Shown: positions 28,364 to 56,490, numbered from the stretch's first letter. The stretch is 56,722 nucleotides of DNA from Myxococcota bacterium (GCA_036482635.1 JAZFWH010000208.1:1-56722); one strand, 5' to 3'. Numbers and translations: made by a program. The notes: a model not told the origin generated them from the sequence alone.

Positions 28364-30408
<2,045 letters not shown>

Positions 30409-40676: not shown

Positions 40677-43600
40677 ATGAACGTCCTGCTCGAGATCGGC
40701 GCGATCGCCCTCGTCGCCGTGCTGGTGGCGCGCTTCGCCCGGCCGCCCTGGCGCAACCGCACCCTCAACCTGCTGAAGGTGGTCGTCACCTTCGAGGCCT
40801 TCCGGCTGCTGCTGACGCATCCGGTGACGATGGAGGACGGCAGCAAGGTCGTCGCGTGGCGGCTCGTGGTCGACACCGTCGGCGGGATCGAGCTCAGTAC
40901 GTTCCTGGTGTTCTGCGCCGCCGCGGCGGGCATCAAGTTCATCGGCATCCTCGCCTCGATGTACCGCTGGCAGGTCCTGCTGCGCGGGCAGGCGATCGAG
41001 CTGCCCTTCCGCCACATCTTCGGCTCGTTCCTGATCGGCCGCTTCATCGGAACCTTCCTGCCCAGCACCGCGGGCCTGGACGGCTACAAGCTGTACGACG
41101 CCGCGCGCTTCAGCGGCCGAACCGTCGAGGTCACCGCCACCACGGCGCTGGAGAAGGTGATCGGCGTCACCGGTATCTTCTCGTCGTTCCTGATCGCTCT
41201 GCCCTTCGGCTTCTCCCTGTTCGGTGACAACGCGGCCCTGATCGCTGGGGTCACCGTGCCCCTCTGCACCGGCCTGATCGGGGCACTCATGCTGGTGCTC
41301 TGGTTCCCCGGCATCATCCAGTGGTTCCTCGAGCACCTGCCCATCCCGGGCAAGGCGCGCCTCGAGGGCCTGGTGATGCGCGTCTCGCACTCGGCGGCCG
41401 CCTACCGCGGCCGGAAGCGGCTGGTGCTGCTGGCCTTCGCTCTCTCGTTCGTCGTCCACTTCACGACGGCCACCATGTACTGGTTCACCGCGCTGGCGAT
41501 CGGAGCCACGCAGGCCGAGTTCTGGCCCACCGTGCTCGGCTCTTCGGTGCAGATCCTGGCGACCGTCCTCTCGCCCTTCACCATCGCCGGCGAGGGGATC
41601 CGGGAGGCCGCGCAGTACTTCCTGCTCGGCAACGTGATCGGCCCCGCCAATGCGATCGTGTCGGCGGCCCTGGGCTTCTGGGCGGCCGAGGCGCTCACGA
41701 TGCTGGGGGCGTATTTCTGGTGGTTCCGGCCCAGGAACTACCACCCGGCCTTCTGCCGCGTGAACGGCGTCCAGGTCGACTACGCGGAGGCGGCGAAGGC
41801 GGCCGTCACGCTCGAGACGGACGAAGAGCGCGAGCGGCGCTCCGAGCGAGCGCTGTCGGCGCCGCCTCCCCTCTGGCAACGCGTGCGCCTGGGCGCCGCA
41901 CTCGGCCTGGCAAGCGGCCTGTGCGGCGGCCTGCTGATCGGCGCCGCCGAGTCGCTCGTGATCGCGCTGGGCGGCCTGGGCGGGGACGCCCAGGTGCTCT
42001 GGTACGGGCCCCTCGCCTACGCCGCGCTGCTGGGCGGACTCGGCTGCGCCGGCGGCGCGGCGCTGGCGGTCCTGCCGGTGGACCGCGAGGAAATCCGTGG
42101 CTGGACGCCCTCGCTGGTCCTGCTCGGCACGCTCCTGCCGTTCTCGCTGGCCATCTCGCTGTTCCGCATCCGCCGCGACGTGTTCCTCGAGCAGATGCCG
42201 CCGCTCCCGGTCCTGGCCGCGCTGCTGGGCGCCGCCGCGGCCGTGGCGCTGCTGCTCTTCCTGCTGGGCCCGCGCCTGTTCCGCACCCGCCTGGGCGACC
42301 TCGTGCGACCGCTCCCCGCGCTGGCCGCGCTGGGCGTCGTCGTCGCCGGCGGCGCCGTGGCGGGGCGCGTGCTGATGGGGAGCGGCGCCGATCGCCAGGC
42401 CCCGCCGCCGGTGCCCGCGGAGCTGCGCGAGCGGCCGAACGTGATCCTCGTGATGGTCGACACGCTGCGCGCCGACCACCTCTCCTGCTACGGCGCGCAG
42501 GACGTGAACACCCCGGCGCTGTGCAGCCTCGCCGGGGACGGCGGGGCGATCTTCGACGCCTACGCACACGCCTCCTGGACCAAGCCCTCGGCGGCGACGC
42601 TGCTCAGCTCGCTGCTGCCCTCGACCCACGGCGCCATCTCGAAGCCCGCGGCGCTCTCCGAGCAGGTGGAGATGCTCGCGGAGCCCATGCAGCGGAGGGG
42701 CTATGCGACGGGCGGCATCGTCTCCAACATCAACCTCGCACCGAGCTTCGGGTTCGACCAGGGCTACGACGAGTACCACTACCTGGCCCCCGACTACCTG
42801 GCCGGGGCGAAGGAGTCGTCCTCGAAGCTGATCCTCTACTCGATCGCGCGCGCGGTCTGGTTCAAGCGGAAGGGCGGCCTGCGAGTGGGCGACTTCTACC
42901 AGGACTCCGCCACCGTGAACGGCGTGGCCTTCGACTTCCTGGAGCGGCACCGCGACGCCCGCTTCTTCCTCTTCCTGCACTACATGGACCCGCACGACCC
43001 GTACTTCGTTCACCCGTACGACGGCCAGGCGATCGCGCGCGTGTCGAACCAGCACCCGGACGCCGCACTCGCCGCCGAGATGCGGCGGCTCTACGTCGGC
43101 GAGATCGAGTACCTCGACGCGAACTTCGCCGCCCTGCTCGAGAAGCTCCGCGAGCTGGACCTCTACGACGACACGCTGATCGCGCTGGTGGCCGATCACG
43201 GCGAGGAGTTCCAGGAGCACGACGGCTGGTGGCACGGACTCACCCTCTACGACGAGCAGATCCGCGTGCCCCTGCTGATCAAGTGGGGGGGGCGCGAGCG
43301 GTCGGTCGTGGGCGACGCCGGGGATCGCGTCGTCGGTCTGATCGACGTGGCGCCGACCCTGCTGGCCCGGGCCGGCGCCGAGATCCCGCCCGCCATGCAA
43401 GGCGTCGACCTGGCGGCCGAACCGCCGCCGGGAGATCGCATGGTCTTCGCCGAGGAGGACCACGAGGGCAACGTGCTGCGCGCCGTGCGCACCCGCGAGT
43501 GGAAGCTGATCGAGGTGATGGAGCAGCCGAGCCCGCGCGGCCTGAAGGCGCAGGAGCTCTACCACGTCGCCGAAGACCCGGGCGAGAGCCGCAATCTGCG

Positions 43601-43751
43601 GGCCGAGCGAGAGGAGATCGCGAGCGAGCTGCGCGCCCACGCCGAGGCCCAGGAGAAGCTCGCCAGGAGCCAGGCCACCGGCGCGGGCGAAGCGCGCCAG
43701 CTCACGGCCGCCGAGGAGGAGGCGCTCCGCGCGCTCGGCTACATCGACTAG
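40677..43751 (+). CDS. fusion protein: MprF-type flippase-like membrane domain (LPG_synthase_TM/UPF0104) + extra TM block + alkaline-phosphatase-superfamily (sulfatase-like) domain
   Basis: ATG at 40677 within track ORF 40590..43751. N-domain YRWQVLLRGQAIELPFRHIFGSFLIGRFIGTFLPSTAGLDGYKLYDA. C-domain VILVMVDTLRADHLSCYG...HASWTKPSAATLLSSLLPSTHG...LVADHGEEF. The sulfatase C/S-x-P-x-R position reads T-K-P-S-A. Confidence 0.8.
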   Translation: MNVLLEIGAIALVAVLVARFARPPWRNRTLNLLKVVVTFEAFRLLLTHPVTMEDGSKVVAWRLVVDTVGGIELSTFLVFCAAAAGIKFIGILASMYRWQVLLRGQAIELPFRHIFGSFLIGRFIGTFLPSTAGLDGYKLYDAARFSGRTVEVTATTALEKVIGVTGIFSSFLIALPFGFSLFGDNAALIAGVTVPLCTGLIGALMLVLWFPGIIQWFLEHLPIPGKARLEGLVMRVSHSAAAYRGRKRLVLLAFALSFVVHFTTATMYWFTALAIGATQAEFWPTVLGSSVQILATVLSPFTIAGEGIREAAQYFLLGNVIGPANAIVSAALGFWAAEALTMLGAYFWWFRPRNYHPAFCRVNGVQVDYAEAAKAAVTLETDEERERRSERALSAPPPLWQRVRLGAALGLASGLCGGLLIGAAESLVIALGGLGGDAQVLWYGPLAYAALLGGLGCAGGAALAVLPVDREEIRGWTPSLVLLGTLLPFSLAISLFRIRRDVFLEQMPPLPVLAALLGAAAAVALLLFLLGPRLFRTRLGDLVRPLPALAALGVVVAGGAVAGRVLMGSGADRQAPPPVPAELRERPNVILVMVDTLRADHLSCYGAQDVNTPALCSLAGDGGAIFDAYAHASWTKPSAATLLSSLLPSTHGAISKPAALSEQVEMLAEPMQRRGYATGGIVSNINLAPSFGFDQGYDEYHYLAPDYLAGAKESSSKLILYSIARAVWFKRKGGLRVGDFYQDSATVNGVAFDFLERHRDARFFLFLHYMDPHDPYFVHPYDGQAIARVSNQHPDAALAAEMRRLYVGEIEYLDANFAALLEKLRELDLYDDTLIALVADHGEEFQEHDGWWHGLTLYDEQIRVPLLIKWGGRERSVVGDAGDRVVGLIDVAPTLLARAGAEIPPAMQGVDLAAEPPPGDRMVFAEEDHEGNVLRAVRTREWKLIEVMEQPSPRGLKAQELYHVAEDPGESRNLRAEREEIASELRAHAEAQEKLARSQATGAGEARQLTAAEEEALRALGYID

Positions 43752-43788
43752 AGCCTCTCACGAACCGCCATCCACAGGCGCCCCCGCC
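43547..43788 (+). repeat. direct repeat copy A (3' 205 nt of the sulfatase-like CDS plus 37 nt downstream)
   Basis: Hand-aligned without gaps to 51033-51274 with 9 mismatches in 242 nt. Confidence 0.9.
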
Positions 43789-43807
43789 GATCGCGGCGGT
43801 GGGGCCC

Positions 43808-46467: not shown

Positions 46468-47354
46468 TCGCTCGGGGGGTCGGCCAGGAATCGCTCGACC
46501 AGCGCGAGGATCTCGTCGCTCGCGTCTTCCAGCACGTAGTGGCCACAGTCGGGGAAGCGGTGCACCTCAGCGTCGGGAAGATGTTGCTGCCACACGTCGA
46601 GGAAGTGATGGTCGAACACGAAGTCCTTCTCGCCCCAGCAGATGAGCACCGGGGTGTCGGCAAACGACCCGAGCTTGCTCTCGACCTCGCTGATCAGATC
46701 GTAGCCACGGTCACCGGCCCGAAGAGGAATGTCCTGGACGAAGCGAAGCGTCGCGATGCGATTCTCCCAGGAGTCGTAGGGGGCGCAATAGGCGTCCCGC
46801 ACTTCCTTGGACAGGCGCCGTCGCGTGCAGCACACCCAGGCCGCGCCCCGGCTGAAGGCATTGAAGCGCCGGACCATGAACGCGGCGAACGATGTGTTGC
46901 GCACCCACCACAGCGCCGTCGGCAACTTCTTGGCTTTCGGCAGGTGGAAGGCGGCGGTATTGAGAAGCACCAGGCGGCGAATGCGATCGGGGTGACGCAC
47001 GGCCCAGGACATCCCGATCATGCCGCCCCAATCGTGCATCACCAGCGTCAGCTTCTGGTCGAGACCCAGGTCGTCCAAGAGTGCGTCGAGATCGTCGACC
47101 CGACGCTCGAGTGAGTACTCGTAGCGCGTGTCGTCGGGCTTGTCGGACAGGCCGCAACCGATGTGATCCGGAACGATGATCCGATACCGGTCGCGCAGGC
47201 CGCGCACCAGGTCGCGGTAGTAGAACGACCAGGTGGGGTTTCCGTGGAGCATGACGACCGGCTCGCCCTTGCCCTCGTCGAGATAGTGGTACCGCAACCC
47301 GCCGAGGTTGAAATGGCGGCCCTCGAAGGGATACAGCGAGGTCGAGACTCGCAT
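46464..47354 (-). CDS. oleB: OleB, beta-lactone decarboxylase (haloalkane-dehalogenase-like alpha/beta hydrolase)
   Basis: 296 aa. VVMLHGNPTWSFYYR, nucleophile motif VMHDWGG, C-terminal CGHYVLED. Confidence 0.85.
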   Translation of the reverse strand: MRVSTSLYPFEGRHFNLGGLRYHYLDEGKGEPVVMLHGNPTWSFYYRDLVRGLRDRYRIIVPDHIGCGLSDKPDDTRYEYSLERRVDDLDALLDDLGLDQKLTLVMHDWGGMIGMSWAVRHPDRIRRLVLLNTAAFHLPKAKKLPTALWWVRNTSFAAFMVRRFNAFSRGAAWVCCTRRRLSKEVRDAYCAPYDSWENRIATLRFVQDIPLRAGDRGYDLISEVESKLGSFADTPVLICWGEKDFVFDHHFLDVWQQHLPDAEVHRFPDCGHYVLEDASDEILALVERFLADPPSE

Positions 47355-47356
47355 TC

Positions 47357-48373
47357 CTACCAGAGGATGCCGGCCGCCGCACAGTTGATGCCGCTCCCGA
47401 TCCCACCCATCAGGACCTTGTCTCCCTTTTTGATGCGCCCCTCATCCAGGGCCTTCGAGAGCACTGTCGGCACACCGGCCGGGCCGATGTTGCCGAACTC
47501 GGGGTAGATGAGCAGGCACTTGTCGGGAGCGATGCCGAGGGTCTCGACGAGCTGGGAGGAGTGCACCTTGCTGATCTGGTGCATGGCGAACTCGTCGATA
47601 TCGTCACTGGACCAGCCCAGAAACTTCTGGCCCACCGACCAGGCCTTCGATGAAACCTCGAGGCCCGCGAGCAGGAGCTTTCTGGTATCGGTCTTCATCT
47701 CGTCGACCTGGCCGGTGCACAGCCGGTTGTGCGAGGTGGCAGCGACTTTGACCCCCCCCAGATAGCGCGGCGCTTCGGGGCTGAATTCCGAGCGCGTGAG
47801 CACCATCGCCGCCGCACCCGATCCGAGGGTGAGGGCGGCGAACTGCTCGCGAAACATCTTCTCGTCGCTATCTTCGCGATTGAGGCGTTCGATCGTCGTC
47901 TCGGTGATGTAGCGACTGCTCTCGCCGTCCACCACGAGCCCGTACTCGATCTCACCGCGCTCGATCATATTTCCGACGATGTCCATGCCGTTGAGAAAAC
48001 CCAGGCAGGCGTTGCCGACGTCGAAGTTGATGCAGTGCTCTCCGAGCTGGAGATTCCTGTGAACCAGACAGGCCACTGAAGGCTCGATGTAATCTCGACA
48101 TACAGATGTGTTGATGACAATCCCGATGCGATCCCGGTTGATGCCGGACTCCTCGATCGCCCGCTCGGCGGCCATGGAGGCGACCTCGCTCGGCTCTACT
48201 CCTGGATCCCAGAACCGCCTTGCGCTGATTCCGGCCAGCGCCTCGAGCATGCCCGGCCGGATGTCGAGACGGTCGAGAGTCGGCATGAGCTGTTCGTCGA
48301 GCTCAGCGGAGGTGATCCGATGTGGCGCGTCGTAGTGGCGAACGCTGGCGATCGAAACGTGCTCGAACTTCAA
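47357..48373 (-). CDS. oleA: OleA, thiolase-fold (FabH-like) head-to-head acyl-CoA condensing enzyme
   Basis: Track ORF 47357..48469. TTG at 48373 lies 8 nt after GGGGAGGA and gives MKFEHVSIASVRHYDAPHRITSAELDEQL, an OleA-like N-terminus. Active-site motif NACLGF. Ends ...GGIGSGINCAAAGILW. Confidence 0.85.
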   Translation of the reverse strand: MKFEHVSIASVRHYDAPHRITSAELDEQLMPTLDRLDIRPGMLEALAGISARRFWDPGVEPSEVASMAAERAIEESGINRDRIGIVINTSVCRDYIEPSVACLVHRNLQLGEHCINFDVGNACLGFLNGMDIVGNMIERGEIEYGLVVDGESSRYITETTIERLNREDSDEKMFREQFAALTLGSGAAAMVLTRSEFSPEAPRYLGGVKVAATSHNRLCTGQVDEMKTDTRKLLLAGLEVSSKAWSVGQKFLGWSSDDIDEFAMHQISKVHSSQLVETLGIAPDKCLLIYPEFGNIGPAGVPTVLSKALDEGRIKKGDKVLMGGIGSGINCAAAGILW

Positions 48374-48689
48374 GATGAATGTCCTCCCCGGCGCAGGTCG
48401 GTTCAACAGGGAACGGCCGAGGAGGGATCGGCGCGTCGTGGACCAATCACGTATCGGCGAATTCGCCACCGGCGTTAGCCTTCTCGCAGCGGCTGCGATG
48501 AGACGGACCAGACCGAGTGTATTTCCCCCCGCTTTGACAGAACGAAAGAATTCTGACCCGCTCCGATCAGATCACGTCAGGATCTGGTCGGGACCTCATC
48601 GCGGAGGCGAAGCAACCGAACCCGCCATTGGGGATGATTCAGCGTCTCGATGTGTCCAACTCCGGGCACGCTCCAGAGCCGCGCGGAGG

Positions 48690-48872
48690 GACCGACCGCG
48701 CGCCCCTGCAGCCGCACCGCGTTGAGACCTTCAAGTTCAGCACCGATCCGAACCTCGAGGACCAAGATGGCCGACATTGTCGGTCTGCACCTCGATCCAC
48801 CGGAGCGTGCCCTCGTCCTCTGCGTCGACGAGAAGTCTCAAATCCAAGCTCTCAACCGGACGCAGCCTCGAA
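48690..48872 (+). mobile_element. internal relic of an IS630-family transposase gene (frameshifted, both ends missing)
   Basis: [22 protein letters not shown] (frame of ORF 48628) then, after a 1-nt shift near 48765, [35 protein letters not shown] (frame of ORF 48650). This matches the conserved IS630 block ...[48 protein letters not shown]. Confidence 0.7.
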
Positions 48873-48939
48873 ACCCTGTTGCAGTGACGATCCGCCCCCA
48901 GCGCGAAACACGGTGCGCCGCGCAAGAGTCACATCGCAG

Positions 48940-49353
48940 CGCAGGGAGAGGGAGACCCTGGCCATCGTCCGCTACCACCAGGTCGTCACCCGCAAGTCCA
49001 ACGACGAGGTCTTTCACGACCAGATCGGATACTGGACGTGGGATCCCGCCACCAGGATGATCGCGCAGTCCGTCAACATCCCGAGAGTTGTCGCAGTGCT
49101 CGCCGGAGGTTCGTTCGAAGGCGACGCGAGCGGATCCGAGGTTGTCCTCGACGTGTATGCGAAGAAAGGTGATCCCGACTGGGGGATCATCGAGTCGCCC
49201 TTCATGCGAGACAACGCGAGCACGGTGGCGCTCGAACACCGCCTCGATGTCAGCGGCGACTGCATGAGCTACTCGGAGACGACGTCGCTCGACATCTACG
49301 GCCGCAAGTTCGATCACAACGACACGAAAAAGCTGACACGGACCTCGGGCTGA
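48940..49353 (+). pseudogene. 5'-truncated heme-binding beta-barrel (nitrobindin/DUF1794, FABP-like) gene
   Basis: [37 protein letters not shown]...LEHRLDVSGDCMSYSETTSLDIYGRKFDHNDTKKL resembles the C-terminal ~130 aa of this family. The usual N-terminal ~35 aa are replaced by IS630-relic sequence. Confidence 0.5.
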
Positions 49354-49365
49354 CCCCAGCTACTT

Positions 49366-49446
49366 CGCCTACGGTCCCAAGAACCTGAGATCCCCGGGGG
49401 TGTCGTCATGACCGGAGGTTCTCGGACCTCGAATCCCAGTTGAAGC
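49366..49446 (+). repeat. structured intergenic repeat, copy 1 (81 bp)
   Basis: CGCCTACGGTCCCAAGAACCTGAGATCCCCGGGGG...ACCGGAGGTTCTCGGACCTCGAATCCCAGTTGAAGC. Shares its ends and core with copies at 51334 and 52892. Internal inverted repeat GGTCC-CA-AGAACC / GGTTCT-C-GGACC. Confidence 0.85.
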
Positions 49447-49503
49447 ACGAGCTCACGGCCGCCGAGGAGGAGGCGCTCCGCGCGCTCGGCTACATCGACT
49501 AGA
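49447..49503 (+). repeat. third, short copy of the sulfatase-like gene 3' end (57 bp, includes the stop codon)
   Basis: ACGAGCTCACGGCCGCCGAGGAGGAGGCGCTCCGCGCGCTCGGCTACATCGACTAGA is identical to the corresponding part of copy B (51033-51274). It carries copy B's CACGAG variant rather than copy A's CGCCAG. Confidence 0.85.
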
Positions 49504-49614
49504 AGCTGTCTCAGAATCCGGTATCGACAGCTACCCAGATTGCCCGTGGAGCCGTGACCAGCCGCCAGGGGGTTGCCCGAGCGCTCCGCTCCCGCTGTGC
49601 GGGCGCCTCGCGCG

Positions 49615-50232
49615 CTATTTCGACACCCGGGTGATCTTCGAGCCCTGGATCCCCACGCCCCCCATCAGGCCCTTCTGGTCGAAGATGAAGGCGTAGACGT
49701 CCTGGGTGAGCGTCGTGCTGGTGAGCGACTTCGCCCCGCCCTCGTCCAAGACGACCAGGCTCGGGCCCGCGCCGAGCTCGAAGCCCCCGCTCTTGTCGAG
49801 GTAAGCGAGCGCGGAGTCGCTCATGAAGAAGAGTGCGTAGCCAAAGACCTGCGCGCCGGCCTGGAAGCCGTAGGAGGCCGCCACGGAGTTGTAGAAGCCG
49901 GCGACCTTGCCACCGCGGAAGAGCGCCCCCTCGCCGAGCTGGCCGCCGAACATGAAGCCCGCCTTCACCATCTTGGGGAAGACCAGGACGCCATGGGCCT
50001 TGTCCCGCAGCAGACGCGCGCCGGGGTTCTTGCGGTAGAGTTTCTCGAGGGTGGCGCGGGCGTCGCGCTCGATCGACTGGCCGCTGGCGGCCGTGGCCGG
50101 CACCGGTGCGGCCGGGCCGAGGACGAGCGTTGCAAGCAGCAGGGCCACCACGGGCCCCGAGAGCCGGGTGATCACGGGTGCTCCTCTCCAGGGGCGTCCG
50201 CTCCGGAAGCCCTTCTCCATGCCGCCCCTCAT
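49615..50232 (-). CDS. secreted SYLF (DUF500/Ysc84-like) domain protein
   Basis: Last 205 aa of track ORF 49615..51183. Signal-like LSGPVVALLLATLVLGPAAPVPATAAS. SYLF pattern VLVFPKMVKAGFMFGGQLGEGALF...YGFQAGAQVFGYALFFMSDSAL...FELGAGPSLVV. ATG at 50232 overlaps the upstream TGA. Confidence 0.75.
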   Translation of the reverse strand: MRGGMEKGFRSGRPWRGAPVITRLSGPVVALLLATLVLGPAAPVPATAASGQSIERDARATLEKLYRKNPGARLLRDKAHGVLVFPKMVKAGFMFGGQLGEGALFRGGKVAGFYNSVAASYGFQAGAQVFGYALFFMSDSALAYLDKSGGFELGAGPSLVVLDEGGAKSLTSTTLTQDVYAFIFDQKGLMGGVGIQGSKITRVSK

Positions 50233-50705
50233 TGCTCGATCACCGGGATCGATGCGGCGAGCTCGTAGAACATGACTGCGTAGATCTTGGTCTCGATCTG
50301 GTAGAAGCGCATCAGCGTGCGGCCCGGCAGCGCCTCGGCGAAGAGCTCCACGTACGAGTGCCGGAGCGCCACGCGGTCGCGTTGGACGGCGAGGTAGGTG
50401 TCGACGAGCTTGCGCGCCTCGTCGTCCTTCGTGCTCCCGAAGGTCCGCTTGTAGTCGTCGATCACCTGGAGGAGGCGATCGCCAACGACCGTGAGCTCCG
50501 CCTGGTAGCGGTCGTAGACTGGCCAGAACGCGCGGGCCTGCTCGTCGCTGAGCGCGAGGTTCACGGCGACGAGCGCCTTCTTGTTGCTGCGGAGCGTGTC
50601 CCGCAGGATTTCCATGCTGGCTTCGTCCGCCTCCCCGGCGCCGGCCGGCGCCGCGGCAAAGACGAACGGCAGCAGAACGGCGAGGACCCAGCTGGTTTTC
50701 GACAT
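50229..50705 (-). CDS. secreted hypothetical protein (helical), co-operonic with the SYLF gene
   Basis: ATG at 50705 is preceded by AAGAGGAAG. Signal peptide MSKTSWVLAVLLPFVFAAAPAGA. No family recognised. Confidence 0.6.
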   Translation of the reverse strand: MSKTSWVLAVLLPFVFAAAPAGAGEADEASMEILRDTLRSNKKALVAVNLALSDEQARAFWPVYDRYQAELTVVGDRLLQVIDDYKRTFGSTKDDEARKLVDTYLAVQRDRVALRHSYVELFAEALPGRTLMRFYQIETKIYAVMFYELAASIPVIEQ

Positions 50706-50862
50706 GGTTGGTGTCTTCCTCTTTTCCACTCCGGGCCTGCCCGTACCCCCACCGAGGCTCGAAGCGGACGGAGCACACGCTATCTCCGCGAGCCAGCGTC
50801 AGCCAGCTCCGGGCCCGACCACCCCGCCGCTGCTGGCAGCGCTGGCGCGCGGCCCGGTACCA

Positions 50863-50893
50863 AACTCCGCTCGGCTGCGCGTCGCGGCGCGCG
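50863..50893. repeat. dispersed copy of the 19985/20034 repeat core
   Basis: AACTCCGCTCGGCTGCGCGTCGCGGCGCGCG versus AACTCCGCTCGGCTGCGCCTCGCTGCGCGC. The first 18 nt are identical. Confidence 0.6.
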
Positions 50894-50908
50894 AGCTGGG
50901 CCCGCTTG

Positions 50909-51040
50909 CTAGCGGCGGGAGGCGTGGACCTCCGGAAGCCGCTCGGCCCAGGGGTAGGCCTCCCCGAGCTGCCCGGCCACGCGCAGCAGCAGATCTTCGC
51001 GGCCCGTCGCGGCCACCAGCTGCACGCCGATCGGCGCAGG
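50909..51040 (-). pseudogene. C-terminal relic of an amidase-signature-family gene
   Basis: Minus-strand translation PAPIGVQLVAATGREDLLLRVAGQLGEAYPWAERLPEVHASRR* resembles the conserved amidase C-terminus (LPVGLQLIG..F.E..LLR.A..LE). The frame is cut at 51040, where repeat copy B begins. Confidence 0.45.
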
Positions 51041-51274
51041 AGCTCTACCACGTCGCGGAAGACCCGGGCGAGAGCCGCAATCTGCGGGCCGAGCGAGAGC
51101 AGATCGCGAGCGAGCTGCGCGCCCACGCCGAGGCCCAGGAGAAGCTCGCCAAGAGCCAGGCCACCGGCACCGGCGAAGCGCACGAGCTCACGGCCGCCGA
51201 GGAGGAGGCGCTCCGCGCGCTCGGCTACATCGACTAGAGCCTGTTACGAACCGCCATCCACAGGCGCCCCCGCC
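51033..51274 (+). repeat. direct repeat copy B of the sulfatase-like gene 3' end (orphan fragment)
   Basis: Encodes ELYHVAEDPGESRNLRAEREQIASELRAHAEAQEKLAKSQATGTGEAHELTAAEEEALRALGYID* with no upstream gene body. 233 of 242 nt identical to 43547-43788. Confidence 0.9.
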
Positions 51275-51333
51275 CCGAGGAGAACGTCCTCTGCGGCGTG
51301 GGCCAGGGGGGCTGGAAACCTTCCTCGCCCCCC

Positions 51334-51429
51334 CGCCTACGGTCCTAAGAGTCCTAAGAACCCGAGATCCGCGGGGAAGTTGTCATCACCGGAGGTTCTC
51401 GGACCTCGAAACCCGGTTGAAGTGACTAT
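51334..51429 (+). repeat. structured intergenic repeat, copy 2 (96 bp)
   Basis: ~90% identical to copy 3 by hand alignment (10 mismatches in 96). Relative to copy 1 it contains an extra AAGAGTCC(T/C) duplication. Confidence 0.85.
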
Positions 51430-51430
51430 A

Positions 51431-51673
51431 TCCCCCAACATGGTGGAGCAGGGCGAGTCGCCCTGTCTCCCGCCCGCCCGCCTCGAGGAGCTCGGCTACA
51501 AGATTCTCGCCTATCCGCTCACCCTGCTGTCGAGCGCCGCCCGGGCGATGCGCGACGCCCCGACCGCCCTGCGCGTCGGGGCTCCCCCCGCCGATGCGCC
51601 GCTCGACTTCTCGGAGCTCCAGGAGGTCGTCGGCTTCGACCACTACCACGCTGAGCGAACCCGCTACGAGTGA
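51431..51673 (+). pseudogene. 3' relic (~80 aa) of an isocitrate-lyase/PEP-mutase-family gene
   Basis: SPNMVEQGESPCLPPARLEELGYKILAYPLTLLSSAARAMRDA...FSELQEVVGFDHYHAERTRYE* matches the C-terminal ...ANMVEGGKTP.L...EL.ELGY.I.IYP... region of 2-methylisocitrate-lyase-like proteins. Homology starts exactly at the right end of repeat copy 2. Confidence 0.55.
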
Positions 51674-51944
51674 GTGGTCCGCGTTGCGAGAGGATACGGA
51701 CGACACCCTCTGCGCATCGATCCAACCACACGTGGTCTGGAGCGAGCGGTCATTCCAGTCGCGGAATTCTGCTGGGACAGCCAGGTCGTTCCTCGGGAGG
51801 TCTTTCGCTGCGCAGCCGGGATGTCGCGATCTCACAAGACTTTTACATTTCTTGCCAGCCCCCGGGTCGAATCCTTCTATAGACTTCCACCTCTCTGTCC
51901 CCCCCCAAAAGAGACAGACGAGAGAATCGAAGCACGCTGATCCG

Positions 51945-52862
51945 ATGGCTCGCCTTCCGGCATCTTCTCGCGGCCCGGGCGATCCGCGCGCCGTGCGGGA
52001 GTTCGACTTGGAAGCCAGTCTGGAGCCTGGGAGCATCGAGGGAAGCGGTCGCATTACCGCGACCGCCGCTCGCCGGGGAACCATCTTGAAATACAAGGCC
52101 GACCGCGGTCCCATCGCCTACGTGGTGGCGGTCTTCATCCTTCGCCTGGCAATCTGGGCCCTGGCGACGCCGTTGATCTGCGCGATGAGTGTAATTCCGC
52201 TGACGGTGCTCGGCATATTCATCGCCCCAATCAACCACCACCATCAGCACGTCAACTCGTTCCGCGCCCCATGGCTGAACCGACTCTACGACCTGGTGTT
52301 ATCCCTGCAGTGCGGCGTCGGGCCCTATAGCTGGGTGCTCCACCATAACCTCGGACATCATGTCAACTACCTGAACCAGCCTCCCCACGAGCGTCCCGAC
52401 GAATCCCGTTGGACACGAGCCGACGGTACGCAGATGGGTCGCCTCGAGTACTCCATCGATCTGCTCCTCCACCATCAGATCGACATTGTCCGCGTCGGGC
52501 TGCACCATCCGAGATACTTCCGCTACTTCCTGCTGATGAAGCTGCCACTCTGGGGCTTGATCGGTGTCGGGCTCTGGCTTCGCCCGCTGGAGACCGTGCT
52601 CGTCTTTCTGGTGCCGGCCTTCTTCACGCTCTTTCACACGATATGGGCCACCTACGAGCACCATGCGGGCTGTCTGTCGAACGACCACCTCCATGCCAGC
52701 CGCAGCCGCGACAATCGCCTCTACAACGCGCTGACTGGCAACCTCGGGCTCCACACCGCCCACCACAAGCGCCCCGGATTGCATTGGTCGCTCTTGCCCG
52801 TCCTGCACGAAAAGATCCGGGACCAGATTCCAAAGGAACAGATCCTCGAGACGTTCTGGTAG
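51945..52862 (+). CDS. membrane fatty-acid desaturase family protein (di-iron, three His boxes)
   Basis: ATG at 51945 within track ORF 51594..52862, 305 aa. His boxes NHHHQH, HNLGHH and HTAHH. Local GC is ~55% by spot count. Confidence 0.75.
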   Translation: MARLPASSRGPGDPRAVREFDLEASLEPGSIEGSGRITATAARRGTILKYKADRGPIAYVVAVFILRLAIWALATPLICAMSVIPLTVLGIFIAPINHHHQHVNSFRAPWLNRLYDLVLSLQCGVGPYSWVLHHNLGHHVNYLNQPPHERPDESRWTRADGTQMGRLEYSIDLLLHHQIDIVRVGLHHPRYFRYFLLMKLPLWGLIGVGLWLRPLETVLVFLVPAFFTLFHTIWATYEHHAGCLSNDHLHASRSRDNRLYNALTGNLGLHTAHHKRPGLHWSLLPVLHEKIRDQIPKEQILETFW

Positions 52863-52891
52863 TCGCATGCTCGAGGGTGGATTCGAGGTTT

Positions 52892-52987
52892 CGCCTACAG
52901 TCCAAAGAGTCCCAAGAACCTGAGATCCCCGGGGGAGCTGTCACAACCGGAGGTTCTCGGACCTCGAAACCCGGTTGAAGCGACTAT
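52892..52987 (+). repeat. structured intergenic repeat, copy 3 (96 bp)
   Basis: CGCCTACAGTCCAAAGAGTCCCAAGAACCTGAGATCCCCGGGGGAGCTGTCACAACCGGAGGTTCTCGGACCTCGAAACCCGGTTGAAGCGACTAT. Lies between the desaturase stop and the P450 stop. Confidence 0.85.
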
Positions 52988-53013
52988 CCGCATTCAGTTG
53001 GATTCGTGCCTTG

Positions 53014-54258
53014 TCATCGGACCGCCGCGTTCGCGTCCCTCATGCGGAATCGGATGGGGAGGTGTTTGATCCCCCCGACAAACGTAGACGCGAGCCGTTC
53101 CGGTGGGGAGGCGAGCTCCAAGTGATCCAGGCGCGGGAGGATCTCCTCGCAGAAGATACGAATCTCCATGCGGGCGAGCGAAGCACCGAGGCAAAAGTGC
53201 TCACCGATGCCGAACGCTAGGTGGGGATTCGGCGTTCGATCGACGCGAAACTCGAAGGGTTCGGCGAAGACGTCTTCGTCTCGGTTTGCCGAGGGGTAGT
53301 AGAGGCACAGCGTATCGCCCTCGGAGATGGCGGCTCCGCCCAGTGTCAGGGGCTGATTCGCTGTGCGGAGGAAGTGACTGACGGGTGTGGTCCAACGCAG
53401 GAACTCTTCGGCAGCGCTGGTTGCGAGTGTCGGGTCGGCCAGGAGCTTTGCGCACTCTTCTGGGCGTTCGATGAGTGCGAGCATGCCTCCGGAGAGCGCG
53501 TTGCGGGTCGTCTCGTGGCCCGCAGTGAGGAACAGGAAGGCGTATCCGAGACGATCCGCCTCACCCATGGGTTCGCCGTCCAGGGTGGCCCGCGCCAGCA
53601 GCGTGGCGATGTCCTCGCGAGGATCGGTGCGACGCTCGTCAAGGATCTGCTTGAAGAACCCCACGAGTTCGCTCGCGGCGGTCACACCGGACTTGTCGGA
53701 GCGCCGGAACTCCCGGTCCTCAAAGCCGAACAGTTCGTTGGTGCGCTCTAGGACGAAGGCTTCGTCGGCGGGTGCAATGCCGAGCAGGTGGCCGATCAGG
53801 CGGAGCGGAAGCGGTGCGGCGATCTCGCTGACAAAGTCGCATTCGTCTCGGTCCGCCAGCCGGTCCACGAGCGAGCGAGCGCAGTCACGAAGGCGCTCCT
53901 CGATCGCCTTGAGATTGCGGGGCGTAAACCAGGGGGAGGCGATCTGTCGATAGGACCGATGCTCGGGTGGGTCCATCTGGATCAAATTGGGAGGCAGCGC
54001 CGCGGCCAAGCTTTCGGCGGCAGCGCGCGTGATCATGATATTGCGGCCCCGGCTCGAGAATTGATCGGGTTGCATGGAGATCGCCCGAATGTCTCGATGC
54101 TTGGTAACCGCCCAGAACGGCTCGAATCCCACCGGCTCGACCCACGCGACGGGGCGTTCGCGCCGGAGCCGCGTCCAGATCTCGTGCGGGTATCCGTGTG
54201 CGGCATAGGAATCGGCATCGACCAGCCGCTGGGCGTCGGCATCGGCGAGGCGGGTCAC
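53014..54258 (-). CDS. cytochrome P450
   Basis: 414 aa. I-helix LTAGHETT, ExxR (EEFLRW), heme loop FGIGEHFCLGASLAR. GTG start overlaps the upstream TGA. Confidence 0.92.
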   Translation of the reverse strand: MTRLADADAQRLVDADSYAAHGYPHEIWTRLRRERPVAWVEPVGFEPFWAVTKHRDIRAISMQPDQFSSRGRNIMITRAAAESLAAALPPNLIQMDPPEHRSYRQIASPWFTPRNLKAIEERLRDCARSLVDRLADRDECDFVSEIAAPLPLRLIGHLLGIAPADEAFVLERTNELFGFEDREFRRSDKSGVTAASELVGFFKQILDERRTDPREDIATLLARATLDGEPMGEADRLGYAFLFLTAGHETTRNALSGGMLALIERPEECAKLLADPTLATSAAEEFLRWTTPVSHFLRTANQPLTLGGAAISEGDTLCLYYPSANRDEDVFAEPFEFRVDRTPNPHLAFGIGEHFCLGASLARMEIRIFCEEILPRLDHLELASPPERLASTFVGGIKHLPIRFRMRDANAAVR

Positions 54259-55148
54259 GCCTTCGGTTCCCGTGGATTGGTGTCAGTATCGGGTCGAGTG
54301 ACGTGGGCGACGCCTTCGCCAAAGGGTTCATCGCGCCGGCGAAGGGTCTCTTTCAGTCCGTGTTCCCGCACACTGGGCCCGAACTCCCGAACTGCAGCGG
54401 CGTGGTGAGCACGGGCATCGTTCTCAGCGGCAAGCCGTTGCAGGACCTGGGCGCCCATCAGCTCGAGCCCCAGGTTGATGATGCGCTTGTTCGCAGCCAA
54501 CAGGTCCGGATCGATTTTGCAGAGACGGCGGGCTAGGTGCTCGACCTCCGCTTCGAGGAACTCGGCCGGAACCGCCTTCATCACCAGGCCGATCGACGCG
54601 GCGTCGGCCCCGCTCACCGAGTCGCCAGTGAGCTGAAGTCGCTTGGCCCACTGGGGGCCGCAGTGGTAGAGCCACAAGTTGTTGGGCAGAGCGCCGAGAC
54701 TGCGCGCCGCCGGAAAGCCGATTCGCGCATTGTCCGCGGCAATCACCATGTCGCAGGCGAGGGCCAGATCGGTGCCACCCGCCAGGCAGGCGCCGTGGAC
54801 CTGCGCGATCGAGGGCTTATGCGTCTCCCACAGCGCACGAATACGCCGGTTGTTGCGCTCGATCAGCCAGATATCGTCGTCGTGACTTCGCCCCGTCCTT
54901 AGCCCCGATTCGGGGCTGCGTCGGGGCAGCGCGGTAAGGTCGTAGCCCGAGCAAAAGCTGGGCCCCTGGCCGCGCAGGACCACGCAATGGACGCTGCGGT
55001 CATCGTCAGCTTTCCAGAGCGCATGCTCGAGCTCGTCGAGCATCGGTGTCGTGATGGCGTTGTGCTTGTCCGGTCGGGCCAGTGTGATGCGAGCTCGCCC
55101 GTCCTGCACTTCGTAATGAATCTCCTTGTACGAGACATCTGCCGCCAC
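54255..55148 (-). CDS. enoyl-CoA hydratase/isomerase (crotonase) family protein
   Basis: C-terminal 297 aa of track ORF 54255..55361. GTG at 55148. ITLARPDKHNAI, VVLRGQGPSFCSGYDL and AQVHGACLAGGTDLALACD. Confidence 0.8.
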   Translation of the reverse strand: MAADVSYKEIHYEVQDGRARITLARPDKHNAITTPMLDELEHALWKADDDRSVHCVVLRGQGPSFCSGYDLTALPRRSPESGLRTGRSHDDDIWLIERNNRRIRALWETHKPSIAQVHGACLAGGTDLALACDMVIAADNARIGFPAARSLGALPNNLWLYHCGPQWAKRLQLTGDSVSGADAASIGLVMKAVPAEFLEAEVEHLARRLCKIDPDLLAANKRIINLGLELMGAQVLQRLAAENDARAHHAAAVREFGPSVREHGLKETLRRRDEPFGEGVAHVTRPDTDTNPREPKA

Positions 55149-55150
55149 GT

Positions 55151-56338
55151 TCAGGCCACCAGCCGTTGGTTGAGGGACGCCGCGTTGGTGTGCAAGATCT
55201 TCGCCTGGTCTTGCGGGGAGATTCCGCCGAGCTCTTCGAAGATGTCGCGCGGTTTCTCGAGGCCCTCCATGTGCGGCCAATCCGATCCAAAGATCACGCG
55301 ATCGGCGCCCATCTGGTCGGCGATCGCAGACAGGTCGTCTTCCCAGAACGGATTGATCCACACGTGCGCGCGGAAGAGGTCCGAGGGATCTTCCTTGTAC
55401 CAGTGCGGCATCCGACGCTTGGACTGGTCGAGCTTGCGAAATAGGTCGCCGAGATAGCCCGAGCCGTTTTCGACCGATGCGATGCGCAGGTTCGGAAAGC
55501 GCTCGAAAAGCTTGTCGTAAGCCAAGCTGATCAGGAAGTCGTAGATCGCCCGCTCCGGACCAAAGCCGGCGATGGTGGGCTGCAACCCAATACCGAGGCT
55601 GTCGAGAAGGCCCTTGCCTGCGTAGCCGTTGGTCGAATATCCGGAGTTCGCCACGTGGGCCACCACGCAGATCCCGGCTTCGTTCACCCGGGCCCAGAAG
55701 GGATCGAACTCCGGATCGGCCGGATTGAGGGGACCGAGACGGGTCCAGGCCGCGGCCGGACGCATGACGATCACACGCGCATCACGCTCGAGGGCCCACT
55801 CGAGTTCCCGGCAGGCCCAATCGACGTCGGCGAGTGAAAAGTAGGGCGCGCTGAAGATCCGGTTTTGGTAGTTGAGGCCCCAGTCCTCATCAAGCCACCG
55901 GTTGAAGCCCTGGAACAAGGCACACACAGCCTGGATGTCGTCCTTCAGGGGCTCTTCGTACAGGACGCCTTCCGTCGGGAAGAGCCAGACTGCCTCGAGG
56001 CCCTGTTCGTCCATTCGCAAGAGCCGTGCATCGCGGTCCATGTACTCGGGCGGCATGGGCTCGAGGGCGGAGCGAACGAGCTCGATGCCCGACTTTCCAC
56101 CCGGATTTCCCCGGTAGAGCTGGCGCAACACTCCGGGCTTGGAGATCGGGTTGAAGGTCGGATTGGGGGTCTGACGGTCGAGCTTGCCCCCAACCAGATG
56201 GAATTTCTTGCCGTTCTCCATCTCGACCCATTGGACGCAGCGCCTATGCATATGCTTGGGCACGTGGCGGATGAAGGCGTCGTGGGCCTCGTAGTAGTGG
56301 TTGTCAGCGTCGAAGAGAGGGCCGTCGTACAGGCTCAT
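55151..56338 (-). CDS. amidohydrolase-2 (ACMSD-like metal-dependent hydrolase) family protein
   Basis: ATG at 56338 within track ORF 55151..56386. FDADNHYYE N-terminal metal motif, VIFGSDWPH C-terminal motif. Confidence 0.8.
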   Translation of the reverse strand: MSLYDGPLFDADNHYYEAHDAFIRHVPKHMHRRCVQWVEMENGKKFHLVGGKLDRQTPNPTFNPISKPGVLRQLYRGNPGGKSGIELVRSALEPMPPEYMDRDARLLRMDEQGLEAVWLFPTEGVLYEEPLKDDIQAVCALFQGFNRWLDEDWGLNYQNRIFSAPYFSLADVDWACRELEWALERDARVIVMRPAAAWTRLGPLNPADPEFDPFWARVNEAGICVVAHVANSGYSTNGYAGKGLLDSLGIGLQPTIAGFGPERAIYDFLISLAYDKLFERFPNLRIASVENGSGYLGDLFRKLDQSKRRMPHWYKEDPSDLFRAHVWINPFWEDDLSAIADQMGADRVIFGSDWPHMEGLEKPRDIFEELGGISPQDQAKILHTNAASLNQRLVA

Positions 56339-56416
56339 GGATGTCGTCCTCGGTGGCTTCGCAGGATCGCCGCGGCGAACCCTCACCCGCCAGGGGGCGA
56401 GGGTCGAGAATCCAAT

Positions 56417-56452
56417 TTTGAGTTAATACTCATTTTTGATTTTATACTCAAA
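56417..56452. promoter_or_regulatory. AT-rich dyad/direct-repeat operator candidate in the divergent TetR / catabolic-operon promoter region
   Basis: TTTGAGTTAATACTCATTTTTGATTTTATACTCAAA. Contains the dyad TGAGT-TAAT-ACTCA, ATACTCA repeated 18 bp later, and outer arms TTTGAGT/ACTCAAA. Very AT-rich relative to the surrounding DNA. Confidence 0.5.
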
Positions 56453-56490
56453 TCAGATAAGGTCAAGTGGCAGAGAGCCCTGGCCGGCGC

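What the first reader, a model, noticed from the sequence alone, without database searches (positions are those of the whole stretch)
49366..52987. New 81-96-bp structured repeat family, three same-strand copies, each sitting at a module junction
The copies are at 49366-49446, 51334-51429 and 52892-52987. They share the ends CGCCTAC(G/A)GTCC...GTTGAAG(C/T)(GACTAT). Copies 2 and 3 are ~90% identical.

All three copies keep two structural elements. One is an 11-bp interrupted inverted repeat, (G)GTCC-N2-AGAACC ... GGTTCT-C-GGACC, with a ~32-nt loop containing CCCCGGGGG. The other is an alternative stem, (A)ACCGG...CCGGT(T).

Each copy begins 12-96 nt after a plus-strand stop codon (nitrobindin-like relic, orphan sulfatase tail, desaturase). 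In two cases the right end abuts a truncated gene exactly: the sulfatase tail at 49447 with GAAGC microhomology, and the PEP-mutase relic at 51430/51431.

This behaviour fits the terminus of a small non-autonomous mobile element or a recombination site. A REP-like RNA stabiliser/terminator or an sRNA are also possible. I do not recognise it as any described family.
Basis: seen in the sequence. Interest (0 to 1): 0.65.

Follow-up and report, generated by a model that had tools for sequence, protein, structure and literature searches.

The report
New short repeat at gene-mosaic junctions
A previously undescribed ~100-base DNA repeat, seen only in a few uncultured Myxococcota-like bacteria, sits where unrelated gene fragments have been spliced together; it looks like a leftover working site of mobile DNA, not a folded RNA.

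Summary
The three same-strand copies are real (49366-49446, 51334-51429/37, 52892-52991). A fourth, right-end-only copy lies at 48866-48900 beside an IS630 relic. The family ("E") is not a local triplication. Full or truncated copies occur in at least six other metagenome or MAG sources, on both strands, always as a discrete ~95-105-nt unit running from CGCCTACGG to CCTATCCGC around an invariant 20-mer, GGAGGTTCTCGGACCTCGAA.

E matches nothing in Rfam 15, phage or plasmid records, or IMG/VR, and is rare in public data.

The "structured" claim is weak. Folding energies equal those of shuffled sequences. Only one 4-6-bp hairpin with a conserved 8-nt loop has any compensatory support. E has no terminal inverted repeats, target duplications, promoter or terminator.

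E recurrently abuts truncated genes or tRNA/tmRNA 3' fragments, IS relics and microhomology joints. In the window it lies in low-GC acquired DNA, next to duplicated 3' tails of a sulfatase and an amidase gene.

Best reading (about 0.42): a DNA-level cis site or non-autonomous piece of mobile DNA that marks integration and rearrangement junctions. No enzyme was found and mobility was not shown. It is a modestly interesting new member of a known kind.

The parts
48866..48900 (+). E copy 4 (c4): right-end fragment only, CCTCGAAACCCTGTTGCAGTGACGATCCGC
   Evidence: the repeat finder family D12. nhmmer E 0.0013. Joined on its left to the IS630 relic.
49366..49446 (+). E copy 1 (c1): left end intact; right end cut about 15 nt short at GTTGAAGC
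51334..51429 (+). E copy 2 (c2): carries the 9-nt internal duplication and ends at GACTAT (terminal CCGC missing)
52892..52991 (+). E copy 3 (c3): full length, CGCCTACAG...GACTATCCGC
   Evidence: Three of the 20 differences between the window and L010 fall at 52891, 52904 and 52944.
49411..49433 (+). Invariant core ACCGGAGGTTCTCGGACCTCGAA in c1 (the same core lies at 51388-51410 and 52946-52968). It contains the hairpin GAGG-TTCTCGGA-CCTC.
   Evidence: Exact 20-mer matches. Hairpin support.
48698..48865 (+). IS630-family transposase relic: an internal fragment with a frameshift
   Evidence: NCBIfam transpos_IS630, E 2.3e-5, profile positions 113-159 of 299. Reading frames.
48955..49353 (+). 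5'-truncated nitrobindin/THAP4-like heme-binding relic; its stop codon lies 12 nt before c1
   Evidence: Pfam PF08768, profile positions 41-151 of 151
49447..49509 (+). Sulfatase 3' tail, copy 2, joined to the truncated c1 through GAAGC microhomology
   Evidence: 100% identical to tail 3 over 59 nt and 92% to the native tail
50909..51035 (-). Copy of the last 127 nt of an amidase gene that lies about 8 kb to the right, just outside the window. It is joined head-to-head to sulfatase tail 3.
   Evidence: 96.9% identical to L010 4938-5064
51033..51274 (+). Sulfatase 3' tail, copy 3 (205 nt of coding sequence plus 37 nt downstream); c2 follows 59 nt later
   Evidence: 96% identical to 43547-43788
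43547..43788 (+). 3' tail attached to the intact sulfatase-domain gene (40590-43751). G+C falls from about 0.72 to about 0.65 immediately after it.
51437..51673 (+). 5'-truncated PEP-mutase/isocitrate-lyase-family relic, starting no more than 7 nt after c2
   Evidence: phmmer against PDB: 3fa3 residues 213-282 of 302, E 3.8e-6
51945..52862 (+). Fatty-acid desaturase with its own conserved upstream leader (51810-51944). Together with the PEP-mutase relic it forms the segment between c2 and c3.
   Evidence: Pfam PF00487. Orthologues and leader.

Best explanation
E is a DNA-level cis element of mobile DNA. It is either a non-autonomous mobile piece or an orphan working site (an element end, att-arm or origin-type site). 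It travels with horizontally acquired segments and is acted on in trans by an enzyme encoded elsewhere.

The invariant core is the most likely recognition module. It consists of the hairpin GAGG-TTCTCGGA-CCTC with flanking GAGATCC / GGTTCTC and GTCC..AGA repeats. Breakage and joining at or near the right side of E couples E-bearing DNA to new sequence. E is therefore left at the distal end of each acquired segment, next to the displaced, 5'-truncated 3' part of whatever gene, tRNA or tmRNA was the entry point.

In this window two low-G+C blocks entered a native locus. The native order was sulfatase -> <- Ysc84 <- 158-aa gene <- amidase. The blocks were ole genes...c1, and c2...desaturase...c3...P450 and onward. 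They entered by recombination through short homologous 3' gene tails (Campbell-type integration of circularised fragments), with microhomology joints, two of which lie inside E.

Shown: the existence, boundaries and distribution of the family, the lack of RNA-type signals, the gene-tail duplications, and the junction anatomy.

Inferred: that an enzyme acts on E, the order of events, and that E is or was mobile.
For: 1. E is a discrete unit. Homology between copies from different loci is confined to about 95-105 nt, with the same left boundary (CGCCTACGG) and the same right boundary (CCTATCCGC).

2. E is dispersed across organisms with 55-71% G+C, yet the 20-mer core is identical. That fits horizontal spread or strong sequence-specific recognition.

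3. Orientation is not tied to transcription. In co-directional spacers, 5 copies are sense and 3 antisense.

4. Truncated copies fused to truncated genes are frequent:
- c4 with an IS630 relic, c1 with the sulfatase tail, c2 with the PEP-mutase relic;
- L012 with a toxin-like ORF that follows an Unstab_antitox antitoxin gene, and L013 with an IS256 relic;
- L005c lies directly after a short ORF remnant.

5. E lies immediately 5' of co-oriented 3' fragments of classic integration targets:
- a tmRNA 3' end in L002 (Rfam tmRNA, E 2.9e-7);
- tRNA 3' halves twice in L005, as an E-spacer-tRNA composite present in two diverged copies.

6. In the window the sulfatase tails form direct repeats that bracket a low-G+C block, with c1 at its distal end. 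An amidase tail copy is joined head-to-head to sulfatase tail 3.

7. Two assemblies of the same population show 0 differences in 48405-51560 and 20 differences in 51561-56722. A recombination boundary therefore lies within about 230 nt of c2. Under a uniform spread of differences the probability is about 7e-5 (my calculation).

8. The only helix with compensatory support is the small core hairpin with a conserved loop. That is the pattern expected of a protein-recognised DNA hairpin.
Against: - No recombinase, transposase, relaxase or integrase gene lies next to any copy in the sequence examined around E copies, roughly 100 kb.
- There are no terminal inverted repeats and no target-site duplication.
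- No empty site or presence/absence polymorphism was found. The two assemblies carry the same copies, and desaturase orthologues are not syntenic.
- Junction positions inside E vary, which suggests ordinary illegitimate recombination rather than a fixed cleavage site.
- Copy number is low and the sample is small (about 20 copies), so the association with truncated genes could partly reflect E simply residing in decaying accessory DNA.
- No intact PEP-mutase or nitrobindin gene lies upstream to serve as an integration target.
Confidence: 0.42

Rival explanations
1. E is a passive selfish repeat (MITE-, REP- or ERIC-like) that inserts into intergenic spacers and plays no part in making the junctions. 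It appears at junctions only because it accumulates in accessory, deletion-prone DNA and because repeated copies offer homology for rearrangement.
For: - Discrete boundaries, sub-families and many decayed copies.
- Solitary copies in ordinary spacers next to housekeeping genes, for example near gyrA in L001 and upstream of a CoA-transferase gene in L011.
- Junction points within E are variable.
Against: - No terminal inverted repeats or target-site duplications.
- Very low abundance. There are 2 exact-core hits in the only matching species among 185,579 genomes, 6 metagenome contigs, and about 7 E-derived ORFs among 1.84 billion representative proteins.
- The most conserved block is internal, not terminal.
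- It does not explain the repeated placement of E directly 5' of co-oriented tRNA, tmRNA or gene 3' fragments.
Confidence: 0.27
2. E is specifically the conserved arm (P-arm) of the attachment site of a family of integrase-driven islands. Each copy is then an attR/attP scar beside the duplicated 3' end of the target gene, and arrays arise by tandem accretion, as with CIME/ICE accretion.
For: - E is about 100 nt and lies 0-50 nt 5' of a tmRNA 3' end (L002) and of tRNA 3' halves (L005, twice). One of these also carries the conserved downstream arm shared by other tRNA-fragment copies.
- The sulfatase tails are direct repeats around a low-G+C block, with c1 at the far end.
- E contains internal direct and inverted GTCC..AGA motifs that could be arm-type sites.
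Against: - No integrase lies in the window, in its 7.5-kb extension, or in any locus holding E.
- Very similar E copies sit beside at least five different "targets". One integrase family would not be expected to do this.
- The c1/tail joint lies inside E and uses microhomology.
- Other tRNA-fragment copies in L005 and L002 carry a different upstream arm.
- Solitary copies have no target fragment.
Confidence: 0.15
3. E acts as RNA: a 3'-UTR stabiliser or processing element, or a small RNA, as in the REP-like reading.
For: - About half of the copies begin within 100 nt of a same-strand stop codon.
- A small hairpin is conserved and has compensatory changes in a diverged copy.
Against: - No excess folding stability on either strand (z from -0.7 to +1.2).
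- The consensus structure is 6 bp at -5.6 kcal/mol.
- The proposed long stem and pseudoknot are barely above the shuffled controls (78.2% against 75.7% of cells paired).
- No terminator or promoter and no Rfam match.
- Antisense and divergent placements occur.
- Truncated copies are common.
- Close strains differ at 3 positions in or adjoining c3.
Confidence: 0.1
4. E is a relic of a cellular RNA gene, such as the pseudoknot region of a tmRNA carried as a long attachment-site fragment.
For: - In L002, E is contiguous with a tmRNA T-arm/acceptor/CCA fragment.
- E can be drawn as an H-type pseudoknot.
Against: - The Rfam tmRNA model aligns only L002 4371-4411 and not E.
- No intact tmRNA among 185,579 species genomes carries the core 20-mer.
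- The one true tmRNA in the loci (L008) shows no similarity to E.
- Elsewhere E adjoins tRNA halves or protein-gene tails instead.
Confidence: 0.04

Closest known systems
Small bacterial interspersed repeats (MITEs; REP/REPIN; ERIC, Correia/NEMIS, RUP)
   Same: About 100 nt, non-coding, multi-copy and intergenic. Discrete boundaries, sub-families, frequent decay and imperfect internal inverted repeats.
   Different: No terminal inverted repeats or target duplication. Copy number is very low. The conserved block is internal. The hairpin is short. No RAYT or transposase partner was seen.
Attachment-site arms and scars of integrative elements, and tandem accretion (CIME/ICE accretion; tRNA- and tmRNA-targeting islands)
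   Same: E lies just 5' of co-oriented 3' fragments of tRNA, tmRNA and protein genes. Direct repeats of a gene tail bracket a compositionally foreign block. Copies form same-strand arrays.
   Different: No integrase. Several unrelated "targets" lie next to near-identical E copies. Junction positions vary and use microhomology.
Integron attC sites / CALIN arrays
   Same: About 60-140 nt, imperfect inverted repeats, same strand, one per segment, following ORFs (in the window).
   Different: No RYYYAAC / GTTRRRY core sites. GTTGAAG occurs only in the window copies and becomes CTTGAAT, CTTATCC or CCTGGAG elsewhere. No intI. Relatives carry copies on both strands. The segments contain gene fragments rather than cassettes.
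Orphan origins of transfer and other HUH-enzyme sites (MOBP oriT nick regions, T-DNA borders, IS200/IS605 or IS91 ends)
   Same: Strand-specific, about 100-nt cis site without inverted termini or target duplication. A hairpin whose stem can change while its loop is conserved. A sharp right boundary. The right end CCTATCCGC resembles the RP4 nick region CACCTATCCTG|CCC (sequence from PMC3772185). oriT copies are known to serve as recombination sites.
   Different: The ATCCTG core that MOBP relaxases require is not intact (ATCCGC). The right end is less conserved than the internal core. No relaxase or HUH gene lies nearby. Nothing was tested functionally.
Homology-facilitated illegitimate recombination / Campbell-type integration of foreign fragments
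   Same: One homologous anchor (a gene tail) plus microhomology joints (GAAGC). Duplicated 3' gene tails that leave the gene intact. Foreign-composition inserts.
   Different: This explains the mosaic but not why E is a conserved family, nor why it is so often at the joints.

Membership tests
Integron attC | Inverted core sites R'' (RYYYAAC) and R' (GTTRRRY) at the two ends | tested here: not met
   The left end is CGCCTACGG in all copies. The segment near the right end reads GGTTGAAG only in the window and GCTTGAAT, GCTTATCC or GCCTGGAG in relatives.
Integron attC | Association with intI/attI, or arrays all in one orientation | tested here: not met
   No integrase among the ORFs from 40590 to 56386 or in the 7.5-kb extension. 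L005/L007 carry copies on both strands.
MITE | Terminal inverted repeats | tested here: not met
   The ends CGCCTACGG... and ...CCTATCCGC are not reverse complements. No arm pair at the termini was reported.
MITE | Target-site duplication flanking each copy | tested here: not met
   Flanks of about 12 copies share no consistent duplication. Only c3 has a nearby 8-nt repeat, TGGATTCG, offset 6-7 nt from the ends.
MITE | Presence/absence polymorphism (empty sites) | tested here: inconclusive
   The window and L010 have the same copies. Orthologous desaturase loci are not syntenic, so no empty site could be compared.
REP/REPIN | High copy number (tens to hundreds per genome) and a RAYT gene | tested here: inconclusive
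   The exact core occurs twice in the only matching MAG. There are up to about 6 full or partial copies in 17.7 kb of L005/L007. No complete genome was available, and a RAYT gene could not be searched for.
Structured RNA family (Rfam 15, including tmRNA, ribozymes, group II intron parts) | Covariance-model match | tested here: not met
   No hit at gathering score in the whole window. No hit on the copies at E up to 10 in 48700-53200.
Structured RNA (generic) | Folding stability above composition, and covarying helices | tested here: not met
   z-scores from -0.7 to +1.2. RNAalifold gives 6 pairs at -5.6 kcal/mol. The long stem and pseudoknot are close to the shuffled controls. Only the core hairpin shows 3 compensatory cells.
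Integrase attachment-site arm (attP/attR) | Immediately adjacent to a core that duplicates the 3' end of the target gene | tested here: met
   c1 with the sulfatase tail. L002 E with the tmRNA 3' end. L005 E with tRNA 3' halves, twice.
Integrase attachment-site arm (attP/attR) | Integrase (and excisionase) gene within the bracketed element | tested here: not met
   None lies between the sulfatase tails or in any locus holding E.
MOBP-type oriT | Nick-region core ATCCTG, consensus (C/T)ATCCTG(C/T), with a proximal inverted repeat | tested here: not met
   The right end reads (C)TATCCGC. The T of the core is absent in every copy. The consensus is taken from PMC3772185. An inverted repeat, ACCGG..CCGGT, ends about 13 nt upstream in c2 and c3.
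MOBP-type oriT | Cognate relaxase; nicking and transfer | not testable with these tools
   No relaxase in the loci examined. Confirmation requires biochemistry or mating assays.

The most novel reading that the evidence does not exclude
E is the cis site of an unrecognised recombination or gene-capture system in uncultured Myxococcota-like bacteria, used by a trans-acting nickase or recombinase. This system would join acquired DNA to the 3' ends of resident genes, tRNAs and tmRNA, building same-strand arrays of segments. It would be functionally analogous to integron attC sites or T-DNA borders, but unrelated to them in sequence.
Probability: 0.1. Interest if true: 0.75.

Novelty: new member of a known kind. 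Interest (0 to 1): 0.38.

Why it matters
If E is a working site of mobile DNA, it gives a sequence handle for finding segment boundaries, and eventually the responsible enzyme, in a poorly known, uncultured group of high-G+C bacteria. The locus is also a clear worked example of accessory genes (ole-type olefin genes, a desaturase, a P450 operon) being spliced next to intact genes through duplicated 3' gene tails and microhomology. If E is only a decaying selfish repeat, it is a minor addition to the catalogue of bacterial interspersed repeats.

Tried and rejected
- **Rfam.** Searches at gathering score and at E up to 10 found nothing on the copies. The only hits, to two eukaryotic lncRNA models, are chance.
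- **ARAGORN.** No tRNA or tmRNA in the window.
- **tmRNA-fragment idea.** Prompted by L002, then rejected.
- **Phage, plasmid and IMG/VR searches.** Nothing found. The single IMG/VR hit to a relaxed pattern (L009, 39% G+C) is chance.
- **First peptide search.** A concatenated six-frame translation of E used as a protein query found nothing, probably because the candidate list was swamped. A single-frame peptide profile then worked.
- **Integron attC reading.** Rejected on the core sites and the absence of intI.
- **Diversity-generating retroelement reading of the duplicated sulfatase tails.** Rejected because the mismatches are not adenine-specific.
- **Simple tandem duplication of the sulfatase-to-amidase segment.** Rejected because the two intervening blocks are not homologous.
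- **E remnant downstream of the native sulfatase tail or of tail 2.** The alignment score is no better than for shuffled sequence.
- **L022 (sulfatase next to a desaturase orthologue) as an empty site.** Rejected because the sulfatases are only 27% identical paralogues.
- **Intact PEP-mutase or nitrobindin genes as integration targets.** None in the window or its extension.
- **Hammerhead and HDV-like ribozyme resemblances.** Considered by eye. The core motifs are not conserved and Rfam is negative.
- **Shared breakpoint in two truncated copies.** c4 and L012 both break at the 3' edge of the core loop. Given the number of truncated copies, this is not significant.

Full report
**1. Observation**

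The window holds three same-strand copies of a repeat at 49366-49446 (c1), 51334-51429 (c2) and 52892-52987 (c3).
- c2 and c3 are 90% identical and share a 9-nt internal duplication, GTCCYAAGA, that c1 lacks.
- An nhmmer profile recovers all three at E 1e-31 to 3e-38. It also recovers a fourth, partial copy (c4, 48866-48900, E 0.0013) made of the right end only.
- The 20-mer GGAGGTTCTCGGACCTCGAA is identical in c1-c3. It is expected 0.00 times in shuffles of the window.

**2. The family exists elsewhere**

An exact-core scan of 185,579 species genomes hit one MAG twice: "Deltaproteobacteria bacterium Meg19_46_Bin_213", loci L001 and L002. A scan of JGI metagenomes hit six contigs, L003-L008.

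A profile built from these found further, more diverged copies on both strands of L005/L007, which are two overlapping contigs of one organism. There are about six full or partial copies in 17.7 kb.

One reverse frame of E is usually open (GFEVREPPVMT..GISGS). I therefore searched a peptide profile of that frame against the 5.8-billion-cluster protein collection. It returned four spurious ORFs. Three of their contigs contain E at the DNA level, L011-L013; the profile found no copy in the fourth, L014. An index-free search of 1.84 billion representative proteins found only about seven such ORFs.

E is therefore real, dispersed and rare. It is restricted to uncultured, mostly high-G+C (55-71%) bacteria. 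Close homologues of neighbouring genes are labelled Myxococcales or Deltaproteobacteria.

All-against-all BLAST of 600-nt flanks shows that homology is confined to E itself. The unit runs from CGCCTACGG to CCTATCCGC, about 95-105 nt. On this definition c3 ends at 52991, c2 lacks the last four bases, and c1 is cut about 15 nt short.

**3. What E is not**

- No Rfam 15 family matches, at gathering score or up to E 10.
- There is no tRNA or tmRNA in the window.
- No phage, plasmid or IMG/VR record matches.
- Folding energies of eight copies, including the reverse strand, are no better than dinucleotide shuffles (z from -0.7 to +1.2).
- RNAalifold on twelve copies keeps a single 6-bp hairpin at -5.6 kcal/mol.
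- The core hairpin GAGG-TTCTCGGA-CCTC gives 86.7% paired cells, with three compensatory cells. For example, a diverged L005 copy has CACG-CTATCGGA-CGTG.
- No sigma-70-like promoter or intrinsic terminator lies in any copy.
- There are no terminal inverted repeats and no consistent target duplication.
- In relatives, copies lie on either strand in divergent, convergent and co-directional spacers. Among the informative co-directional cases I count 5 sense and 3 antisense.

These results argue against a stable RNA, a terminator or a classical MITE.

**4. What surrounds E**

*Window layout.*
- Up to 43.8 kb the window has native composition (G+C about 0.72, GC3 about 0.9). After that G+C falls to 0.60-0.66, except for a native-like island at 49.6-51.2 kb.
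- A 1053-aa sulfatase-domain gene ends at 43751.
- Its last 205 nt plus 37 nt downstream recur at 51033-51274 (96% identity). Its last ~60 nt recur at 49445-49509. That short copy is 100% identical to the 51-kb copy over 59 nt and 92% to the native tail.
- Looking up the P450 gene recovered a second assembly of the same population, L010. It is 99.76% identical to the window and extends 7.5 kb beyond the window's right end.
- L010 shows that window 50909-51035 (- strand) is a 96.9% copy of the last 127 nt of an amidase gene lying about 8 kb to the right. This copy is joined head-to-head to sulfatase tail 3.

*Content of the segments.*
- Between the native tail and tail 2: an oleD/C/B/A-like cluster, an IS630 relic, c4, a 5'-truncated nitrobindin-like relic and c1.
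- Between tail 2 and the amidase tail: native-composition genes (Ysc84-like and a 158-aa ORF).
- After tail 3: c2, a 5'-truncated PEP-mutase-family relic, a desaturase, c3, then P450, enoyl-CoA hydratase and amidohydrolase genes.

*Simplest history (inference).* The ancestral order was sulfatase -> <- Ysc84 <- 158-aa gene <- amidase. Two foreign blocks then entered by single crossovers in the sulfatase tail and the amidase tail. The incoming DNA was fragments circularised by illegitimate joining. This leaves each gene intact plus a displaced, 5'-truncated tail.

Two of the illegitimate joints lie inside E. They are c1 to tail 2 (GAAGC microhomology) and the IS630 relic to c4.

*Strain comparison.* The window and L010 differ at 0 positions in 48405-51560 and at 20 positions in 51561-56722. 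By my calculation the probability is about 7e-5 if differences were uniform. A population-level recombination boundary therefore lies within about 230 nt of c2.

**5. The same habit in other genomes**

- In L002, E is contiguous with a tmRNA T-arm/acceptor/CCA fragment (Rfam E 2.9e-7). A second tRNA 3' fragment follows.
- In L005, E or its remnant lies 15-50 nt 5' of a tRNA 3' half. This happens twice, as a diverged composite unit.
- The same contigs carry at least six same-strand tRNA-Thr-like 3' halves. Some of these have 170-215 nt of conserved downstream arm.
- In L012, E is cut inside its core and fused to a toxin-like ORF that follows an antitoxin gene (Pfam Unstab_antitox). In L013 it is cut and fused to an IS256 transposase relic. 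In L005c it follows directly after a short ORF remnant that looks to me like the coiled-coil part of an IS3-type OrfA; I did not test this.
- Solitary copies also occur in ordinary spacers, for example near gyrA in L001 and in L011.
- No recombinase, relaxase or transposase gene lies next to any copy.

**6. Explanation**

The evidence favours a DNA-level element of mobile DNA over an RNA. I commit, at about 0.42, to the following reading. E is a non-autonomous cis site (an element end, att-arm or origin-type site) recognised in trans through its invariant core. It is carried with acquired DNA and left at the distal end of inserted segments, beside the displaced 3' part of the entry gene.

Rivals, with my confidence in each:
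- A passive MITE/REP-like repeat that merely accumulates in decaying accessory DNA (0.27).
- Specifically the arm of an integrase attachment site (0.15).
- An RNA element (0.10).
- A relic of a cellular RNA gene such as tmRNA (0.04).

One lead is untested. The right end CCTATCCGC resembles the RP4 oriT nick region CACCTATCCTG|CCC (oligonucleotide sequence and MOBP consensus (C/T)ATCCTG(C/T) from PMC3772185). However, E lacks the T of the required ATCCTG core, so membership is not met.

**7. Limits**

- No complete genome of an E-bearing organism was available.
- No empty site could be found. Desaturase orthologues at 75-89% identity sit in unrelated contexts without E. The one sulfatase-desaturase neighbour (L022) is a 27%-identical paralogue.
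- Mobility, the enzyme and the order of events are therefore inferred, not shown.

**8. Verdict**

E is a new, rare member of the known class of short mobile-DNA-associated repeats. Interest is moderate (0.38). There is a roughly 10% chance that it marks an unrecognised gene-capture or recombination system.

Noticed in passing
window 43808-48469 (- strand): Four-gene cluster resembling oleD/C/B/A olefin biosynthesis (3-beta-HSD/epimerase, AMP-binding enzyme, alpha/beta hydrolase, KASIII-like). It lies in DNA of lower G+C (about 0.65) than the preceding 43 kb (about 0.72).
   Followed up: partly
window 43547-43788, 49445-49509, 51033-51274 and 50909-51035 (- strand): The 3' tail of the sulfatase-domain gene is present three times. 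A copy of the 3' tail of an amidase gene located outside the window is joined head-to-head to the third tail. This fits Campbell-type integration of circularised foreign fragments.
   Followed up: yes
window 19985-20071 and 50855-50892: A different 38-nt repeat, GCCCGCTGAACTCCGCTCGGCTGCGCCTCGCTGCGCGC. Two perfect copies lie 49 nt apart after a stop codon, and a 76% copy lies in the mosaic region. It was absent from the other loci fetched.
   Followed up: partly
window 51810-51944; L015, L016, L017, L018, L021, L022, L023 upstream of the desaturase: The desaturase keeps a conserved ~135-nt upstream leader (..TTTTACATT..TAGACT..) in orthologues whose neighbouring genes are all different. Gene and leader therefore seem to move as a unit. 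The weak Rfam lncRNA hit at 51817-51915 falls on this leader and is chance.
   Followed up: partly
L005 (- strand) near 9758, 5290, 4813, 1476 and 448; L007 12795; L002 198: At least six same-strand copies of a tRNA-Thr(CGU)-like 3' half in 17.7 kb. Their 5' extents vary, and some have 170-215 nt of conserved downstream sequence shared between two organisms. Four directly follow same-strand stop codons. No integrase is in view. They look like attachment-site relics or a second repeat family.
   Followed up: partly
window 48405-56722 compared with L010: Two assemblies of the same population are identical over 48405-51560 but differ at 20 positions over 51561-56722. Three of the differences fall in or at c3: 52891, 52904 and 52944.
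   Followed up: partly
window 52878-52885 and 52998-53005: An 8-nt direct repeat, TGGATTCG, lies 6-7 nt outside each end of c3. No equivalent was seen around other copies, so it is probably chance.
   Followed up: partly
L006 2470-2531 (- strand): A second, diverged and truncated E copy lies tail-to-tail with the full copy, about 60 nt away, at the contig end.
   Followed up: no
L003 1240-1267 and L008 2472-2499: Only the ~23-nt invariant core of E is present. It lies 20-40 nt upstream of the start of a large gene (1434-codon open frame) on the opposite strand, closed by a different short stem (TCGAG/CTCGA). L008 also holds a normal tmRNA gene at 7090-7455 that is unrelated to E.
   Followed up: no
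window 25711-25777, 27318-27384 and 29340-29406: A 67-nt segment recurs three times at 67-72% identity within long - strand ORFs. These are probably paralogous genes in tandem; not examined (family D4).
   Followed up: no
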